A stretch of 64,000 bases of DNA, from the IMG/VR virus record IMGVR_UViG_2925891887_000001; one strand, given 5' to 3'. Of this stretch, positions 15,745 to 22,261 are shown piece after piece (the stretch's first letter is position 1; every line of letters starts with the position of its first letter). The translations under genes and the position numbers were made by a program. The notes beneath the pieces were generated by a model that was given only the letters and a program-made list of their open reading frames with translations, did no database searches and was not told where the DNA came from. This DNA comes from a virus. Its lineage: Duplodnaviria > Heunggongvirae > Uroviricota > Caudoviricetes.

Positions 15745-16128
15745 GTGTTTATTGAAGCGTTTGCAAGTTTGATGCAGAAGGCAAAGATTGGCACGGTCGG
15801 GACTGACATTTTCTGTCACTACTTGCCTGCCAATGTGAAATCTGGCGTCCTGCTTATTAACCCAAATACCGGTATCAGCATCGATCATGAGCTACAGGGC
15901 TTTTACCACGAATCATTCACAATAATTGTGCGTGGTTCGTCAATTACTACGACGGTTGAGAAAGCCAATAAAATCATTGAGATGTTTCCAGTAGAGGAAA
16001 CGGAATCTGGTGGTGTTTATTTTCGACTGGTACGACCGATGGCGATGCCAATCATTTATCCCAAAAATGATGGGGCATTAATAGAAGCAGGCATTCCTAT
16101 TGAATTTGCTGGCTATTTATTGAATTAA
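15745..16128 (+). CDS. Tail terminator/completion protein (putative)
   Basis: Track ORF from 15622; probable GTG start after GAGAGG RBS, coupled to upstream stop. Confidence 0.4.
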   Translation: MFIEAFASLMQKAKIGTVGTDIFCHYLPANVKSGVLLINPNTGISIDHELQGFYHESFTIIVRGSSITTTVEKANKIIEMFPVEETESGGVYFRLVRPMAMPIIYPKNDGALIEAGIPIEFAGYLLN

Positions 16129-16202
16129 CTCAATTGGTAAGTATATACTTACTATTAGCGCAATGAATGCGTAGAATTAACGGAAAAAGGAGTTTTCCAT
16201 CA

Positions 16203-16949
16203 ATGTCTAATACCCATGTAAAAAACATCAAACTTGGTGCCTGTAAGGTGTCGTTTGGTGGTGTGGATTTGGGTTACACCAAAGGTGGTGTTCAGGTTGA
16301 AATCGCAACCGAAACGCTGAAAGTGACCGTAGACCAGCTGGGCCAGACCACGATCTCCGAGCTGATCCAGGGCCGCAACATCACCATTACTGCGCCGCTG
16401 GCTGAATCCGTGTTGAAAAACATGGTCGATCTGATGCCAGGTTCCACGCTGAGTTCTGGCGAAGATACCGTAACCATCACGTCTGCGCAGGGAGTGAACC
16501 TGATCGACGTTGCGAAAGAGTTGGTGCTGACCCCGCAGGATGCGACGGATTATGTTCTGACCATCCCTAAAGCAGCAACCGCGGGTAACTTCACCATGAC
16601 CTACCAGTCTGACGACGTTCGCGTGTTCTCAGTTGAGTTTTCCGCTTACCCGGACGACGCTGGCGTGTTGGGGAAAATGAGCCTCCCAAAGCCGGTTGAG
16701 AGCGTCACGCTGACCCCGTCTTCACCGACCGTAAAAGTGGGCACTAAAGTTCAATTGAGCGCAACCTTCACCCCGGCCGATGCAACCAATAAGACTGGCG
16801 TGTGGAGCTCTGATGCGACTGATAAAGCGACCGTAGATCAGAACGGACTGGTAACTGGTAAAGCTGTCGGTTCAGCCAATATCACCTTCACAACTAATGA
16901 CGGTGCCAAGAAGGCGACCAAAGCCGTCTCTGTAACTGCCGCAAGCTAA
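16203..16949 (+). CDS. Major tail protein with C-terminal Ig-like (Big_2) domain
   Basis: ATG after AAAAAGGAG; lambda gpV-like N-terminus (KLGACKVSFGGVDLGYTKGG); C-terminal Big_2-like domain. Confidence 0.75.
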   Translation: MSNTHVKNIKLGACKVSFGGVDLGYTKGGVQVEIATETLKVTVDQLGQTTISELIQGRNITITAPLAESVLKNMVDLMPGSTLSSGEDTVTITSAQGVNLIDVAKELVLTPQDATDYVLTIPKAATAGNFTMTYQSDDVRVFSVEFSAYPDDAGVLGKMSLPKPVESVTLTPSSPTVKVGTKVQLSATFTPADATNKTGVWSSDATDKATVDQNGLVTGKAVGSANITFTTNDGAKKATKAVSVTAAS

Positions 16950-17011
16950 ATTGTGATAACCCAAGAGGCCCATGGATGGGCCTCTGTATGAGTTTAAAAG
17001 GATTTTAACCA

Positions 17012-17329
17012 ATGACCAAATTACTCGATCTCGATTCCATTCTGCCTCCGAAGAAAAGCATCAAATTTGGCGGTCAGGAATATCCCATCGTTGAAATGAC
17101 GGTAGGTCTGTTCGTTTCCATCAAGCAGATGGAAGGCAAAGATCTCATGAACATGTCTCCTGTTGAGCAAGTGACAGCTTATGCAGATCTGGTTCGTAAG
17201 GTTATCCCTTCAGTACCTGACGAAGTTCTTGAAAAACTGACTGTTCCGCAACTCCAGCAGATCTTCACCTTCGCTATGGAAGTGATTGATGAAGAAAACG
17301 AAAAAGCGGCTGGCGAAGGGGCAAAGTAA
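17012..17329 (+). CDS. Tail assembly chaperone (gpG-like)
   Basis: 105-aa acidic protein just upstream of tape measure gene. Confidence 0.6.
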   Translation: MTKLLDLDSILPPKKSIKFGGQEYPIVEMTVGLFVSIKQMEGKDLMNMSPVEQVTAYADLVRKVIPSVPDEVLEKLTVPQLQQIFTFAMEVIDEENEKAAGEGAK

Positions 17330-17679
17330 TTTCCCGCGATGAATCCGGGACAAGGACCGTCTCAATAGATCTCGGATTCTATTTCAGTCGTGTAGTTGCT
17401 CACTACGCCGTGTCGCCATTAGAGCTACTGAACGTTCCTCTCACGATGTTCTGGATGCTCAGTCGCAATATAGACCGTCTGCGTGCGGAAGAGGATGTCC
17501 GCAACTTACAAGTCGCTCGTGCGTCCCAGGCGGATGGCGAGGCTGTGAAGGCGTTCATGGAGGGTTTGCAACTCAGGATTGGAAGACCAGTCGTAACAGA
17601 TAAAGTCTACGATCCAAGCCAGGATAAGGCAGACCCTGACGCCAAAGAGCAACTGATGCAAATATTTGGCAGAGGATGA
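17293..17679 (+). CDS. Tail assembly chaperone frameshift extension (gpT-like), candidate -1 frameshift product
   Basis: The -1 frame is open from about 17293 through 17679, overlapping the end of the G-like ORF; A-rich run gaaaaag at 17300-17306 is a candidate slip site. Confidence 0.4.
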   Translation, partial: RKRKSGWRRGKVISRDESGTRTVSIDLGFYFSRVVAHYAVSPLELLNVPLTMFWMLSRNIDRLRAEEDVRNLQVARASQADGEAVKAFMEGLQLRIGRPVVTDKVYDPSQDKADPDAKEQLMQIFGRG

Positions 17680-17686
17680 CAAGGGA

Positions 17687-20600
17687 ATGTCACAAAACGT
17701 AGAGTTTATCCTGTCGCTGGAAGACAAACAGTTTACAGCGTCAATCGATCGTGCGGGGAAACTGCTTACTCGATTTGGTGAGCAGGTAACAAAGCCTGCT
17801 CAAAAAATCCAAACCTTTGAACGCTCTTTGGGTTCGGTCGCCCGTATCATTGGCGTTCTGGAAAGCAAGCTCGATTCTACGGCAGATAAACTACAGGATG
17901 TAGCTGCCGGTTTTGAGCTTGCTTCAGATGCTACGCGTAAAATGCGTGGCAACATCACCAGCCTCAATTCTGGTCTTAAAGCCCTGATTGAGCGCGTCGA
18001 TACGACAACTTCTTCAGTAGATAAACTCACCGCGTCATTACGTAAAGTGCAATCAGAGCTAAATGATTTCTCTGATTGGGCGACCTATGCAAGCAAAAGC
18101 GCAAGCCGCTTTGGTACGGAGGTCAAAGAAGCCTCTGCGTCCGTGAGTGGCATGAATACGCGCCTTAATACCACGACGAAGCGACTCAGTAATTGGGGTG
18201 TCTCAACGAGTCAGGCTGCCGAGGGACTGAAAAAGGTTCGTGAGCAGATGGACGAAGTTATCGGACGTCAGCAACTGATTAGCAAGCCGGTACGCGTTCG
18301 TACATCTGGAGGTAGCGATGGTGGCAGCGGGCGGCGTAGCGGCTCTGGCCATAGCGGTAAAAGTAACGAAGGAGGTATGTTCTCTGGCCTTCGTGGCAAC
18401 ATTTTCCTGCTTGGCGAGATCGGAGATGCAGCCAGAACGGTTACTGACATCATGTTTGGGTGGCAGAAGCCTATTGTTGAAGCTGCGGCCGAAATGGAAC
18501 GTATGCGGGTGATGCTTCGAGGGTTGAATAAGGAGAAGTCCAACCCGGGCCAGGCTGCCGCTGATGATATGAAGTACATCGTAGACATGGCTCAAAATGC
18601 GCCGTTCGCGATGCAGGCGTTAACAGACTCCTTCGTGAAGTTTCGTTCTGCTGGCTTAGATCCAACCGATGGTTCTCTGAAGGCGCTGGTGGACTCCGTT
18701 GCTCGTTTTGGTGGTGATAGTGAGCTGTTGAAACGTGCGGCTGTGGCCGTTCAGCAGATGTCCGGTAAGGGCGTTGTGTCAATGGAAGAGCTACGTCAGC
18801 AATTAGGTGAAGCCGTTCCTAACGCGATGCAGGCAATGGCAGACGCCGCAGGCATCACTATGGGGGAACTGACTAAAGCCGTTGCCAGCGGTACGGTTGA
18901 GGCAAAACAGGCGTTGTCTCTGATGTTTGTTGGTCTGCGTGCGGAGAATGAGAACGCAGCGAAAGACATGATGCAAACCTACACAGGTGCGCTGGCGCAA
19001 CTTCAGACGTCATTCACGTTATTTGCTGATCGGGTTGGTCAGGCCGGATATCTGGATTCTCTATCGAAGGGGATGAAAGAACTGGCTTCAATCATGAATA
19101 GCGCCGAAGGGATTTCGTTTGCCAATTCTTTAGGTTCGGGGTTAACAACGGCAATCGATGGGTTGCGTCAGCTTGCTCAATGGTTAGCAAAGAACCAAGA
19201 GCTGGTAATTAATCTCGGTAAGGTCGTGGCCGCGATGGTTGCGTTCAAACTGATGCGAGCAGGGATCATGGGGGTAGTTGGCGCTGGGAGCCAGATGGTT
19301 AGCACCTTTGCCACGATGGCGACCGCCATACAGACTCCATTTAACCTCGGCGCTACAGCAGTAACTCGATTCAATCGTGCGGCACGTATGGGGCTGGCTC
19401 CGATCCCCTCTCTTATTTTCGCCATCCGTGGGGCGATTACGGGGCTTAAAGGCGCTTTTGCTGGATTAACGGCGTTCATTGCAGCAAACCCTATAGGGGC
19501 AGCATTTACAGTTGCCACAGTAGCTGTTGCTGGCCTAATCACGTACATGACCATGCTCCGCAGCGAAACTTCAAAGGTCGTTGACGAGATTAGGAAAATA
19601 CCAGAGGCGATGACGGCGGCCAAACGTGCACAGATGGCGGAGTATAAAGCGCGTCTTGAGCAACAAATCACGCAAAAGGAACAAGAGTTAAAATCTGGCG
19701 AAAAGGTGGTTTATGGGCCGGGTATGGCCGGAACTACAGTAAAGATTAATCAGGATGAACGTAAGCGTATAGAAAATGAGCTAAATGACCTTCGTGAGAA
19801 ACGCGATAAAACTACTGGGGCAATTGAACGCGGAGACACTGCTGTAGCCAAACGTCTTGCAAAAGATGCGGCAGAATCACAGATAGAGAAAATACGGGAA
19901 GAGAATAGAGACTTTGCGGCAACATTCGCTAAAGCTCGTCAAGAGGCTCTGGATAAGATCCAGAAAATCAATGATGACGGTTCACTTTCAGATGACGAAA
20001 AGAACAAGCTATTGGCACCGTTACGTGAAACGGTAAACAAAAGCTATCTGGAGCCTGCGCAAAAACTGGTTGATTCACTTTCTTCTCGTAAGAATGCGAC
20101 CGAGAAGCAAATTGCGACTCTTAATGATCAGCTTGAAAAAGCCAAAAAGGATGGAAATACCGAGCAGATCCAGAAACTGCAAGGCAGTATTCGTGGTTAT
20201 CAGGAGCATTTGGAAGCCGTTGCTCAGGAGCTGACTCAGGCAGAGTTCGAGAGAGATAACGCGGCCAAAACTGGTAAGGGCGTAATGTCAAACCAGGGGA
20301 CTGTTCTTGGGTTAGGTACAACTGATAAAGCTGCTCAGAAGGCGCTGGCGCAATATATGCGAAACCAGATGGATTCTGCGACTTATCAGCGTACTTTGCC
20401 TGACGGCACTCCGATGATGGACTTCGAAGGTAAGCCGATTATTGGGCCTAAACAACTCAAGACGCAGCTTAATTTGCAGAAAGCATCCAGCGCCAGCTCT
20501 CTGGAGAAAATGAGCGATGAAGAGCGTGCCGCAGCCATTGCTGCACTGACTAAAGCTCGTGAACAGGATGCCGCAGCCGCCGAGAAAGCAGCCCAACGAT

Positions 20601-22261
20601 CAGCTAACGCCTCGCAGCGTGCGGCCAAGAAGGAACAGGCAGCGCAACAGAAACTGGCAGCCGGATACCAGAAGGCTCTGGACAAAGCCGATCAGCTTAT
20701 GGGGCAAATGGGTGAAAGCTCTAAGGCTACGGTATCGTTTGATCAGTCTCTTCGCGATACAACGAAATCGCTGACAGATTTGGCTAATGCGGTTCCTAAC
20801 GAGTTCATCACTCAAGAGATGATCGACAAGGCGAAAAAACGTCTTGAAGACCTCAAAAATGCGACACCTGAATATCGCGAGATGTTTAATCGCCGCAATG
20901 TTGAGCAGATGATCTCCACCTGGGCACCGGAGGCGGATTCCATTATTAGTGCTGGCTATACGCCGTCTCGCGAAGAGAAAGTTGCTGATTTCGAAGACAC
21001 CTACAACCGCAATCTCAAAGCGTTGATAGAACTTCGTGATAAGGCGTCTGATCCTAAAGTTGTGGCGCTTTATACAAAGAAAATCAATCAACTGATTGCT
21101 GCTGGCAATACCGCGCTTATTAAAGAGACGGGGACTGCGACGCAGAAGTTGGCACTGGAATACGAAAACCTGGCAGAGCAGATCGAAAGCACCTGGACTG
21201 ATTTGTTTAGTGGCTTAACTGATGTCCTGACTGATTTCGTTATTAACGGGAAGATGAGCTTCTCCAGCCTATCTCAGTCCATTTTGAAAGATATCACCAA
21301 TATGGTCGTGAAGTCGCAAATCACGCTGCCTCTAATGAACATGTTGGGGATGGGAACCACCGCAGCTGGTAGTTCACAGAGTGGCAATTTGCTCACTGGA
21401 GTTGCTTCTGCCGTTGCCAATCAAGGTGTACGAATGGGCAACACTGTTAATGGCGACAAGTCGGTAGGAGAAGCCACGAAGGAGACGTCCAGTTCGGTAA
21501 CTGGATTGGGGCAAACAACACAGCAGACCACCAGCGCAATTGGCACAGCAACAAATGCGATTGGTAGCTGGGTATCGGGGCTATTTGATAGCACCGAAGC
21601 CAAAGATGCTGAGACAAAAGCAGTGAAGGACTCCATCTTCTCGATGCAGAACCTCAGCTCTGTTACCGGCGCTCTGTCTGCCGCGTTTGCAATGCTTGGA
21701 GCTAATGCTTCCGGCTCTGGTAATAAGTGGTTGAATTTCGGCGCGACAGTTGCATCTGGTTTGGTTTCAGTATGGGCTGGTGGTGGATTCGATGGATTGA
21801 TGTCCGGTTCTTCTGGCTCAACTTCCGGGTTCAACAATCTGACCAGTTCTGCTGCCGATGGCACGAATGGTATTCCTGCAATTCCGAAGTTTGCAAATGG
21901 TGGCATATTCGGAAAAGACGGCGTGATCCCGCTCCGGGCATACCAGAAAGGCGGTATCGCCAACTCACCTCAATTGGCGTTGTTTGGGGAAGGCGATATG
22001 AATGAGGCGTATGTTCCATTGCCTGATGGCCGAACAATCCCTGTAACGCTCAGTACCGATGGTATGAGTGGAGGCGGAAATGTTCTTTCTCCTGTATCAA
22101 TTGAGATCAACGTCCATAGTGACGGTAGCACGACAGAATCCGGCGATACAGAAAGCATATGGAACAATGCCGCTCAACGGATGAAAGCAATCGCGCTTGA
22201 GACTATCGCTCAAGAGAAACGCCCTGGCGGATCACTCAACCCAAACACTCAACGTAACTAA
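17687..22261 (+). CDS. Tape measure protein
   Basis: About 1525 aa, coiled-coil rich, hydrophobic Gly/Ala segments; track start 17666 is TTG, ATG at 17687 has a better RBS. Confidence 0.85.
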   Translation: MSQNVEFILSLEDKQFTASIDRAGKLLTRFGEQVTKPAQKIQTFERSLGSVARIIGVLESKLDSTADKLQDVAAGFELASDATRKMRGNITSLNSGLKALIERVDTTTSSVDKLTASLRKVQSELNDFSDWATYASKSASRFGTEVKEASASVSGMNTRLNTTTKRLSNWGVSTSQAAEGLKKVREQMDEVIGRQQLISKPVRVRTSGGSDGGSGRRSGSGHSGKSNEGGMFSGLRGNIFLLGEIGDAARTVTDIMFGWQKPIVEAAAEMERMRVMLRGLNKEKSNPGQAAADDMKYIVDMAQNAPFAMQALTDSFVKFRSAGLDPTDGSLKALVDSVARFGGDSELLKRAAVAVQQMSGKGVVSMEELRQQLGEAVPNAMQAMADAAGITMGELTKAVASGTVEAKQALSLMFVGLRAENENAAKDMMQTYTGALAQLQTSFTLFADRVGQAGYLDSLSKGMKELASIMNSAEGISFANSLGSGLTTAIDGLRQLAQWLAKNQELVINLGKVVAAMVAFKLMRAGIMGVVGAGSQMVSTFATMATAIQTPFNLGATAVTRFNRAARMGLAPIPSLIFAIRGAITGLKGAFAGLTAFIAANPIGAAFTVATVAVAGLITYMTMLRSETSKVVDEIRKIPEAMTAAKRAQMAEYKARLEQQITQKEQELKSGEKVVYGPGMAGTTVKINQDERKRIENELNDLREKRDKTTGAIERGDTAVAKRLAKDAAESQIEKIREENRDFAATFAKARQEALDKIQKINDDGSLSDDEKNKLLAPLRETVNKSYLEPAQKLVDSLSSRKNATEKQIATLNDQLEKAKKDGNTEQIQKLQGSIRGYQEHLEAVAQELTQAEFERDNAAKTGKGVMSNQGTVLGLGTTDKAAQKALAQYMRNQMDSATYQRTLPDGTPMMDFEGKPIIGPKQLKTQLNLQKASSASSLEKMSDEERAAAIAALTKAREQDAAAAEKAAQRSANASQRAAKKEQAAQQKLAAGYQKALDKADQLMGQMGESSKATVSFDQSLRDTTKSLTDLANAVPNEFITQEMIDKAKKRLEDLKNATPEYREMFNRRNVEQMISTWAPEADSIISAGYTPSREEKVADFEDTYNRNLKALIELRDKASDPKVVALYTKKINQLIAAGNTALIKETGTATQKLALEYENLAEQIESTWTDLFSGLTDVLTDFVINGKMSFSSLSQSILKDITNMVVKSQITLPLMNMLGMGTTAAGSSQSGNLLTGVASAVANQGVRMGNTVNGDKSVGEATKETSSSVTGLGQTTQQTTSAIGTATNAIGSWVSGLFDSTEAKDAETKAVKDSIFSMQNLSSVTGALSAAFAMLGANASGSGNKWLNFGATVASGLVSVWAGGGFDGLMSGSSGSTSGFNNLTSSAADGTNGIPAIPKFANGGIFGKDGVIPLRAYQKGGIANSPQLALFGEGDMNEAYVPLPDGRTIPVTLSTDGMSGGGNVLSPVSIEINVHSDGSTTESGDTESIWNNAAQRMKAIALETIAQEKRPGGSLNPNTQRN

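What the first reader, a model, noticed from the sequence alone, without database searches (positions are those of the whole stretch)
17293..17329. Candidate programmed -1 frameshift joining the tail chaperone to a T-like extension
The -1 frame is open from about 17293 to 17679, overlapping the end of the G-like ORF, the usual G/GT arrangement upstream of tape measure genes. The only A-rich candidate slip site is gaaaaag at 17300-17306, which is not a canonical X-XXY-YYZ heptamer in the G frame, so the mechanism would be atypical.
Basis: partly seen in the sequence, partly recalled or inferred. Interest (0 to 1): 0.4.

Follow-up and report, generated by a model that had tools for sequence, protein, structure and literature searches.

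The report
Tail chaperone G/GT frameshift, site relocated

Summary
The -1 frame is open from 17293 to 17679 and overlaps the end of a 105-aa ORF (17012-17329) lying between the Ig-bearing major tail protein gene and the tape measure gene.

The G/GT frameshift reading is strongly supported by comparison:
- All about 126 related loci examined keep the downstream ORF at -1.
- Substitutions switch from third positions of the G frame to third positions of the -1 frame exactly at the G stop, about 80 nt before any start codon.
- 27 of 29 distant relatives carry an in-phase canonical heptamer in the overlap.

The proposed slip site, gaaaaag at 17300-17306, is rejected. In 36 of 87 close relatives and 5 of 9 intermediate ones a -1-frame TGA lies downstream of it. 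Seven of the 9 intermediate relatives lack it altogether.

The invariant element is [GCA/GTA]_AAG_TA[A/G] (window 17321-17329). The overlap shrinks to 10 or even 7 nt around it. This is a known non-heptameric motif class (A_AAG, as in IS1222 and B. subtilis cdd), here next to the stop codon.

A stem-loop starting 8 nt downstream is probable but weakly supported. No record annotates the frameshift.

Verdict: an ordinary phage feature, unannotated in this family, with a mildly unusual slip site.

The parts
16167..16949 (+). Major tail protein gene with a C-terminal Big_2 Ig-like domain (upstream context)
   Evidence: Pfam Big_2 E 4.9e-23 at residues 176-254. PHROG hits to an Ig-domain protein and to major tail proteins.
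17012..17329 (+). G: tail assembly chaperone candidate, 105 aa, zero-frame product
   Evidence: ORF. phrog_893 (unknown function) E 4.5e-49. AlphaFold model pLDDT 72.6. Foldseek against BFVD: top hit is named 'Tail assembly chaperone' (E 5.2e-4) and at least 12 proteins so named are among the top 40. Lies between the major tail protein and tape measure genes.
17300..17306 (+).
   Evidence: Followed by a -1-frame TGA in 36 of 87 SSU5-like loci and in 5 of 9 intermediate relatives. Absent in 7 of those 9.
17321..17326 (+). Proposed slip motif GCA_AAG (A_AAG at 17323-17326): tRNA-Lys re-pairs from AAG to AAA
   Evidence: GCAAAGTA is invariant in 88 SSU5-like loci (59 unique sequences). It is GCA or GTA, then AAG, in all 9 intermediate relatives, while flanking codons vary. 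The overlap narrows to 10 nt, and to 7 nt in L138, around it.
17327..17329 (+). G stop codon TAA (TAG in some relatives), directly 3' of the slip codon; possible 'shifty stop' stimulator
   Evidence: A stimulatory role is inferred, not shown.
17326..17679 (+). T extension in the -1 frame (117 codons plus TGA). Predicted GT = join(17012..17326,17326..17679), 222 aa
   Evidence: - Variable columns in 17330-17409 fall 15/4/2 on T-frame codon positions 3/1/2 (chi-square p = 0.001).
- In-frame 3-nt insertions occur in relatives.
- tblastn alignments to relatives at 27-37% identity reach upstream of any start codon.
- The motif (I/V)D(L/F)xFxF is conserved upstream of GTG 17410.
- phrog_1131 E 4.9e-40.
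17335..17392 (+). Candidate stimulatory stem-loop (outer helix 17335-17340 with 17387-17392; inner helix 17341-17348 with 17372-17379), starting 8 nt after the slip codon
   Evidence: - RNAalifold consensus.
- The inner 8 bp are paired in 14 of 14 distinct sequences, with one compensatory U-A to G-C change.
- The same topology gives z = -4.8 in Photorhabdus L131 and -2.1 in L133, but only -1.0 in the window.
- Synonymous diversity dips across 17255-17410.
- Shuffle controls are weak (36/500).
17687..22261 (+). Tape measure protein gene (downstream context)
   Evidence: Pfam TMP_3 E 4.3e-27 and Tape_meas_lam_C E 6.1e-13. phrog_1292 matches full length.

Best explanation
Genes 17012-17329 and 17326-17679 are the G/GT tail-assembly-chaperone pair of an SSU5-like E. 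coli phage-plasmid.

Most ribosomes translate G (105 aa) and terminate at TAA 17327-17329. A minority slip back one nucleotide on GCA_AAG (17321-17326): the single tRNA-Lys leaves AAG (17324-17326) and re-pairs with AAA (17323-17325). The next codon read is GTA (17326-17328), and translation continues in the -1 frame to TGA 17677-17679. The product is a 222-aa G-T fusion with the junction ...EGAK-VISRDESG....

The slip may happen in either of two ways, which give the same protein:
- with tRNA-Lys in the A site and tRNA-Ala on GCA in the P site (hexanucleotide mode); or
- with tRNA-Lys in the P site while the A site holds the slowly decoded stop codon ('shifty stop').

A stem-loop starting 8 nt downstream (17335-17392) probably raises efficiency.

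By analogy with lambda gpG/gpGT, G and the G part of GT coat the tape measure protein, and the T part recruits the major tail protein.

Shown here: the frame arrangement, its conservation, protein-coding selection on the start-less -1 region, and confinement of the slip to 7-10 nt. Inferred: the slipping event itself, its efficiency, its stimulators and the chaperone function.
For: 1. Gene order is major tail protein (Big_2), then G, then T, then tape measure.
2. In 88 SSU5-like loci, 9 intermediate relatives and 29 distant relatives (Pseudomonas nickie-like, Rhizobium and Stenotrophomonas phages, and metagenomic contigs), the T ORF is always -1 relative to G and its frame opens inside G.
3. 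The phase of substitution flips at the G stop. G-frame positions 3/1/2 carry 80/31/12 variable columns before it. T-frame positions 3/1/2 carry 15/4/2 in 17330-17409, which has no start codon (p = 0.001). Indels there are multiples of 3.
4. GTG 17410 is not conserved (GTA, GTT or GTC in more than 20 loci). Gene callers give T lengths of 74 to 116 aa.
5. 27 of 29 distant relatives carry an in-phase canonical heptamer in the overlap: G_GGA_AAG 9, G_GGA_AAC 7, C_CCA_AAG 6, A_AAA_AAA 3, G_GGA_AAA 2. The baseline is 10 of 88 ORFs in this window.
6. [GCA/GTA]_AAG_TA[A/G] is invariant in all 97 close and intermediate loci, although Ala, Val and Lys codons elsewhere vary freely. The overlap is only 10 nt in 36 of 87 close loci and in 4 intermediate loci, and 7 nt in L138.
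7. In E. coli, A_AAG is the most shift-prone -1 tetramer (A_AA.G > U_UU.Y > C_CC.Y > A_AA.A; PMC4066793). NNA_AAG motifs are used by IS1222 and occur in B. subtilis cdd (PMC5009743).
8. The G model's best BFVD fold matches are proteins named tail assembly chaperone.
Against: - There is no protein-level evidence of a fusion.
- The motif is not a canonical heptamer. In reporter assays tetramers alone are barely above background without a strong 3' stimulator (PMC4066793).
- The candidate hairpin is not significant in the window sequence itself (z = -1.0). Its covariation support is one compensatory pair, and it lies inside a conserved protein motif.
- A second trough of synonymous diversity at 17536-17680 shows that such troughs are not specific to the slip site.
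- Some intermediate relatives have an ATG or GTG just before the conserved SIDLGF motif, so independent T translation is conceivable there.
- G and T have no significant Pfam, NCBIfam or PDB sequence hits.
Confidence: 0.75

Rival explanations
1. The frameshift is real but occurs, in this window's lineage, at the reader's site: tRNA-Lys slips on the in-phase A_AAA (17302-17305, within gaaaaag), giving the junction ...EENEK-SGWRRGKVISR.... It could act alone or alongside the A_AAG site.
For: In the window and in 51 of 87 SSU5-like loci the -1 frame is open from 17293, so a slip here would yield a full-length GT. A_AA.A is one of the four shift-prone tetramers in E. coli (PMC4066793).
Against: - A -1-frame TGA follows the site in 36 of 87 close loci, including SSU5, and in 5 of 9 intermediate relatives.
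- The A run is replaced by GAA GCN in 7 of those 9.
- Variation in 17293-17320 falls on G-frame third positions, which are T-frame first positions. It includes the GGC/GGT change that toggles a stop, so the T frame is not under selection there.
- A_AA.A ranks below A_AA.G.
- The candidate hairpin would be 30 nt away.
Confidence: 0.08
2. There is no frameshift. T is an independent small protein started at GTG 17410, at ATG 17446 or at a non-canonical codon such as ATT 17329. The conserved upstream sequence is a regulatory or RNA element.
For: - All public annotations call two separate hypothetical proteins.
- AAGGGG (17316-17321) lies 7 nt before ATT 17329 and could act as a Shine-Dalgarno sequence.
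- Some intermediate relatives have an ATG or GTG before SIDLGF.
- One metagenomic variant has ATG at the ATT position (L136).
Against: - 17330-17409 shows third-position-biased substitution and 3-nt indels in the -1 frame.
- The peptide directly after the stop, K-V-I-(S/T)-R-(D/E/G)-E, is conserved.
- Conserved T residues (D26 and F29 of the alignment) precede every start codon in this clade.
- GTG 17410 is not conserved. ATT becomes ATA, ATC, GAA or GTA. The AAGGGG becomes AAGAAG, ACGACG or AAGACG in relatives.
- The -1 offset plus canonical heptamers in 27 of 29 distant relatives would be unexplained.
Confidence: 0.1
3. The frame change is made at the RNA level, by transcriptional slippage of RNA polymerase on an A run, or is an assembly or sequencing indel artefact.
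For: One ENA assembly (P0001) reads through from G into the T frame at a shortened GAAAAG.
Against: - The A runs are only 5 nt (17301-17305) and 3 nt (17323-17325). By general knowledge, productive transcriptional slippage needs longer homopolymers.
- P0001 carries further frame breaks downstream and looks like a low-quality assembly.
- The same -1 offset is present in 231 complete E. coli plasmids at up to 100% identity and in more than 120 independent loci.
Confidence: 0.02

Closest known systems
Phage lambda gpG/gpGT tail assembly chaperone frameshift (Levin, Hendrix and Casjens 1993; Xu, Hendrix and Duda 2004, 2013, 2014; as summarised in PMC5009743)
   Same: - Two overlapping ORFs between the major tail protein and tape measure genes.
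- The second ORF is at -1 and has no start of its own.
- The slip is near the 3' end of G, on a lysine AAG codon.
- Distant homologues of this very gene pair use lambda's own heptamer G_GGA_AAG.
   Different: - The window has GCA_AAG, not G_GGA_AAG. The P-site codon cannot re-pair canonically, and the base before it is not even conserved (G or A).
- The slip codon abuts the stop codon.
- G and T have no detectable sequence similarity to the lambda G and T Pfam families.
Tetra/hexanucleotide -1 frameshift motifs A_AAG / NNA_AAG: IS1222 transposase (G_CGA_AAG) and B. subtilis cdd (A_CGA_AAG) (PMC5009743; PMC4066793)
   Same: - An in-phase A_AAG with a non-repetitive 5' codon ending in A.
- The single tRNA-Lys re-pairs from AAG to AAA.
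- Low efficiency is expected, and the slip is near the end of the ORF.
- The 5' codons here (GCA, GUA) are read in E. coli by cmo5U34 tRNAs with extended wobble. That is the class reported to favour this kind of slip (review text; the tRNA identities are from my own knowledge).
   Different: - The 5' codon is GCA or GUA rather than CGA.
- The stop codon is immediately adjacent.
- The biological role is a phage tail chaperone rather than a transposase or an incidental product.
E. coli dnaX A_AAA_AAG frameshift cassette (upstream SD-like element plus downstream hairpin)
   Same: The same tRNA-Lys AAG to AAA slip, and a stem-loop a few nucleotides downstream.
   Different: - There is no heptamer.
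- No well-spaced SD-like element: GGNGA at 17312-17316 lies only 4-6 nt upstream and encodes a conserved Gly-Glu/Asp.
- The frameshift product is longer than the zero-frame product, not shorter.

Membership tests
Phage tail assembly chaperone G/GT programmed frameshift (lambda paradigm) | Two overlapping ORFs located between the major tail protein gene and the tape measure gene | tested here: met
   Major tail protein 16167-16949, G 17012-17329, T frame 17293-17679, tape measure 17687-22261.
Phage tail assembly chaperone G/GT programmed frameshift (lambda paradigm) | The downstream ORF is in a shifted frame, overlaps the 3' end of G and lacks a conserved start of its own | tested here: met
   The -1 offset holds in all about 126 loci examined. 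There is no start before GTG 17410, which is itself not conserved.
Phage tail assembly chaperone G/GT programmed frameshift (lambda paradigm) | Canonical slippery heptamer X_XXY_YYZ in phase within the overlap | tested here: not met
   There is no in-phase heptamer in 17293-17329. Only the A_AAA (17302-17305) and A_AAG (17323-17326) tetramers are present. The feature is met in 27 of 29 distant homologues.
Phage tail assembly chaperone G/GT programmed frameshift (lambda paradigm) | The start-less extension is under protein-coding selection and is conserved in relatives | tested here: met
   T-frame third-position bias 15/4/2 (p = 0.001). In-frame indels. tblastn alignments at 27-37% identity cover the extension.
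Phage tail assembly chaperone G/GT programmed frameshift (lambda paradigm) | G has the tail-assembly-chaperone fold or belongs to a chaperone sequence family | tested here: inconclusive
   - No significant Pfam, NCBIfam or PDB sequence hit. One relative gave a sub-threshold Phage_TAC_7 hit, E 0.032.
- Model pLDDT 72.6.
- Foldseek against BFVD: top hit named 'Tail assembly chaperone', E 5.2e-4, and many proteins so named follow.
Phage tail assembly chaperone G/GT programmed frameshift (lambda paradigm) | A G-T fusion protein is made at a few percent of G, and both are needed for tail assembly | not testable with these tools
   Needs a western blot, mass spectrometry, a reporter assay and genetics.
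A_AAG / NNA_AAG tetra- or hexanucleotide -1 frameshift motifs | [quoted passage not shown] | tested here: met
   The G frame reads GCA AAG TAA and the -1 frame reads GGC AAA GTA. Invariant in 97 close and intermediate loci.
A_AAG / NNA_AAG tetra- or hexanucleotide -1 frameshift motifs | A 3' stimulatory structure at a suitable spacing, needed for appreciable efficiency | tested here: inconclusive
   A stem-loop starts 8 nt downstream and its topology is conserved. There is one compensatory pair. z = -4.8 in L131 but -1.0 in the window. Shuffle controls give 36/500.
dnaX-type cassette | SD-like stimulator about 10-14 nt upstream of the slip site | tested here: not met
   Only GGNGA at 17312-17316, 4-6 nt upstream. 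The AAGGGG adjacent to the motif is not conserved.

The most novel reading that the evidence does not exclude
SSU5-like phage-plasmids have replaced the ancestral canonical heptamer of this chaperone family with a minimal GYA_AAG_UAR signal. In it, the -1 slip of peptidyl-tRNA-Lys is driven by slow decoding of the adjacent stop codon ('shifty stop') together with a hairpin 8 nt downstream. The G:GT ratio would then depend on release-factor activity and host physiology. The same AAG-plus-stop design (C_CCA_AAG_UAR) attaches the Ig-like domain to the major tail protein in sister lineages. In this window that junction has been fused in frame, and a slip there would instead remove the Ig domain.
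Probability: 0.3. Interest if true: 0.45.

Novelty: new member of a known kind. Interest (0 to 1): 0.3.

Why it matters
SSU5-like phage-plasmids are common. This exact module is on plasmids in 231 of 5426 complete E. coli genomes. It also occurs in Salmonella, Klebsiella, Kluyvera, Cronobacter and Yersinia pestis contigs.

Every record inspected annotates G and T as two unrelated hypothetical proteins, with inconsistent T starts. Recognising join(17012..17326,17326..17679) as the GT chaperone corrects the annotation of the tail module. It also assigns a function to two PHROG families now marked 'unknown function' (phrog_893 and phrog_1131).

The case is a natural example of a phage chaperone frameshift on a non-heptameric A_AAG motif next to a stop codon. 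Frameshift predictors that look only for X_XXY_YYZ will miss it. Biologically it is the expected, well-understood lambda-type mechanism, so the surprise value is low.

Tried and rejected
2. Stop-codon readthrough was rejected. The zero frame after TAA ends at TAG 17365-17367, and SSU5 has an earlier TAA.
3. The short ORF ATG 17340 to TAG 17367 is not conserved: SSU5 has a stop after 4 codons.
4. G_GGG-type slips: GGG 17318-17320 is GAG or GAA in relatives, so it was rejected.
5. An SD-like AAGGGG acting as stimulator or as ribosome-binding site for ATT 17329 is not conserved.
6. The search for related loci with the diverse T alignment failed for lack of a conserved stretch. Single-protein queries were used instead.
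7. The search with the fused GT query returned only 6 odd or chimeric hits and no annotated fusion. P0001 is a read-through at a shortened A run in a low-quality assembly and is not evidence.
8. Sequence searches of G and T against Pfam, NCBIfam and PDB gave nothing significant.
9. The T-domain model had low confidence (pLDDT 65). Its fold search returned only one uncharacterised sequence homologue.
10. No paper linking SSU5 or these phage-plasmids to a chaperone frameshift was found in the library.

Full report
**What the window is.** Region 16100-17800 is 84-92% identical to Salmonella phage SSU5, Escherichia phage Cyrano and several Klebsiella phage-plasmids. Region 16990-17700 is 100% identical to E. 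coli plasmids of about 110 kb. It occurs in 231 of 5426 complete E. coli genomes, always on plasmids. The window is therefore an SSU5-like phage-plasmid.

**Checking the observation.**
- The ORF 17012-17329 (ATG to TAA, 105 aa) reads ...GAA AAA GCG GCT GGC GAA GGG GCA AAG TAA at its end.
- The -1 frame has TGA TGA at 17287-17292 and is then open from 17293 to TGA 17677-17679.
- The first start codon in that frame is GTG 17410.
- Upstream lies a major tail protein gene with a Big_2 domain (16167-16949). Downstream lies the tape measure gene (ATG 17687 to 22261; Pfam TMP_3 and Tape_meas_lam_C).

So the description is accurate, except for the claim that this is the only candidate slip site. An in-phase A_AAG (17323-17326) directly precedes the stop.

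The raw pattern alone is not beyond chance. Of 88 ORFs of at least 100 aa in the window, 16 have a -1 frame open for at least 100 codons past their stop, and 10 have an in-phase heptamer near their end. Of the three ORFs that end in A_AAG plus stop, only this one has a long -1 extension: 117 codons, against 26 and 30.

**Is the -1 extension translated?** I collected three sets of relatives:
- 88 SSU5-like loci (59 unique 690-nt segments) from viral and genome collections.
- 9 intermediate relatives with 60-75% identical G, from Photorhabdus, Raoultella, Klebsiella and metagenomes.
- 29 distant relatives: Pseudomonas nickie-like phages, Rhizobium phages such as RHEph10 and V1VFA-S, Stenotrophomonas phages, and metagenomic contigs.

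In every one of them the T ORF is -1 relative to G and its frame opens inside G.

Among the SSU5-like sequences the phase of substitution flips exactly at the G stop:
- Before it, variable columns fall 80/31/12 on G-frame codon positions 3/1/2.
- In 17330-17409, after the stop and before any start codon, they fall 15/4/2 on T-frame positions 3/1/2 (chi-square p = 0.001).

Indels in this stretch are multiples of three. The peptide directly after the stop, K-V-I-(S/T)-R-(D/E/G)-E, is conserved in the intermediate relatives. tblastn alignments to phages with 27-37% identical T run through the start-less part. The most conserved N-terminal motif, (I/V)D(L/F)xFxF, lies upstream of GTG 17410.

That GTG is GTA, GTT or GTC in more than 20 loci. 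Public gene calls for T range from 74 to 116 aa, which suggests there is no genuine conserved start. No record annotates a frameshift.

**Where is the slip?**

Distant relatives answer this for the family. 27 of 29 carry an in-phase canonical heptamer in the overlap, 3-27 nt before the G stop: G_GGA_AAG 9, G_GGA_AAC 7, C_CCA_AAG 6, A_AAA_AAA 3, G_GGA_AAA 2. The other two have G_GGG_GAR.

- SSU5 and 36 of 87 close loci have GGT rather than GGC at 17312-17314. This makes TGG TGA in the -1 frame and leaves only 10 nt of overlap.
- Four intermediate relatives have the same 10-nt overlap, and L138 has only 7 nt: TGA immediately before GGC.AAA.GTA.
- Seven of the nine intermediate relatives read GAA GCN and so have no A run at all.

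What is invariant in all 97 close and intermediate loci is [GCA or GTA]_AAG_TA[A or G]. The codons before it vary (GGG, GAG, GAA, GAC). Ala, Val and Lys codons elsewhere in G vary synonymously.

The slip is therefore confined to GCA_AAG (17321-17326). tRNA-Lys moves from AAG to AAA, and the next codon read is GTA 17326-17328. The predicted product is join(17012..17326,17326..17679), 222 aa.

**Mechanistic context from the literature.**
- A Z_ZZN tetramer is the minimal -1 motif. In E. coli the ranking is A_AA.G > U_UU.Y > C_CC.Y > A_AA.A, but tetramers are barely above background without a 3' stimulator (PMC4066793).
- A_AAG frameshifting occurs at A_CGA_AAG in B. subtilis cdd and is used at G_CGA_AAG by IS1222.
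- Its efficiency depends on the wobble flexibility of the tRNA reading the 5' NNA codon (PMC5009743).
- From my own knowledge, GCA and GUA are read in E. coli by cmo5U34 tRNAs with extended wobble, which fits the favourable class.
- The adjacent stop codon could add a 'shifty stop' effect. This is inferred, not tested.

**Stimulators.** RNAalifold predicts a stem-loop at 17335-17392, with an inner helix 17341-17348 / 17372-17379, starting 8 nt after the slip codon.
- The inner 8 bp are paired in 14 of 14 distinct sequences. One change is a compensatory U-A to G-C and several are wobble-compatible.
- The shuffle controls are weak: 36/500 and 141/500.
- The same topology is very stable in Photorhabdus L131 (-26 kcal/mol, z = -4.8) and moderately so in L133 (z = -2.1). 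It is not significant in the window (z = -1.0).
- Synonymous diversity dips across 17255-17410, but there is a second dip at 17536-17680.

I rate the hairpin as probable, not established. No well-placed SD-like element is conserved.

**Is G a chaperone?**
- G and T match only PHROG families of unknown function: phrog_893 and phrog_1131.
- There is no Pfam, NCBIfam or PDB sequence hit.
- The G model (pLDDT 72.6, a beta-hairpin plus four helices) has as its best BFVD match a protein named 'Tail assembly chaperone' (E 5.2e-4), with many proteins so named following.
- The T model was poor (pLDDT 65) and its fold search was uninformative.

Function therefore rests mainly on gene order and on the frameshift architecture.

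**Rivals.**
- Independent initiation of T: contradicted by coding selection on the start-less region and by the family-wide -1 offset with heptamers.
- Transcriptional slippage or an assembly error: the A runs are too short and the arrangement is present in hundreds of independent assemblies.

**Verdict.** This is the classical lambda-type G/GT tail chaperone frameshift, unannotated in SSU5-like phage-plasmids. The slip motif is a known non-heptameric class placed at the stop codon, which is mildly unusual for this gene pair. Novelty: a new member of a known kind. Interest is low to moderate.

Noticed in passing
window 16685-16691 (within the major tail protein gene 16167-16949); relatives L132 858-894, L133 859-895, L135 851-887: In three intermediate relatives the major tail protein ORF (163 aa) ends GCC CCA AAG TAA or TAG. 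That is a canonical C_CCA_AAG heptamer plus a stop. The Big_2 Ig-like domain ORF lies in the -1 frame with a 34-nt overlap, which suggests a second -1 frameshift that attaches the Ig domain. In the window the same heptamer is in phase but the Ig domain is fused in the zero frame. A -1 slip here would stop after CCC AAA GCC GGT TGA and give a tail protein without the Ig domain.
   Followed up: partly
window 17536-17680: There is a second trough of synonymous-site diversity at the 3' end of the T frame, running into the tape measure start (ATG 17687). It might reflect translational coupling, a ribosome-binding-site constraint or a recent recombination tract.
   Followed up: no
L102 around 985-1004 and L103 around 980-998 (distant relatives): Two distant relatives lack a canonical heptamer and instead have G_GGG_GAA or G_GGG_GAG just before the G stop. 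This is another non-heptameric variant within the same gene family.
   Followed up: no
protein P0001 (ENA contig of 111.5 kb): One assembly encodes a read-through from G into the T frame at a shortened A run (EENEK-SGWRRGKVISR...). Further frame breaks follow, so it looks like homopolymer sequencing error rather than biology.
   Followed up: partly
L094 (Yersinia pestis NCTC5923, 108-kb contig); L091 and L095 (metagenome-assembled genomes labelled Bacillota and Fimivivens): The same G/T module, with T 93% identical, is on a 108-kb Y. pestis contig. It also appears in metagenome bins labelled as Firmicutes, which is probably a binning artefact for an enterobacterial phage-plasmid.
   Followed up: no
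L006 about 1540-1580 (Rhizobium phage RHEph10): A strong hairpin (-24.9 kcal/mol, z = -3.4) begins about 8 nt after the G_GGA_AAC heptamer. A 3' stem-loop may therefore be a general feature of this chaperone family's frameshift cassette.
   Followed up: partly
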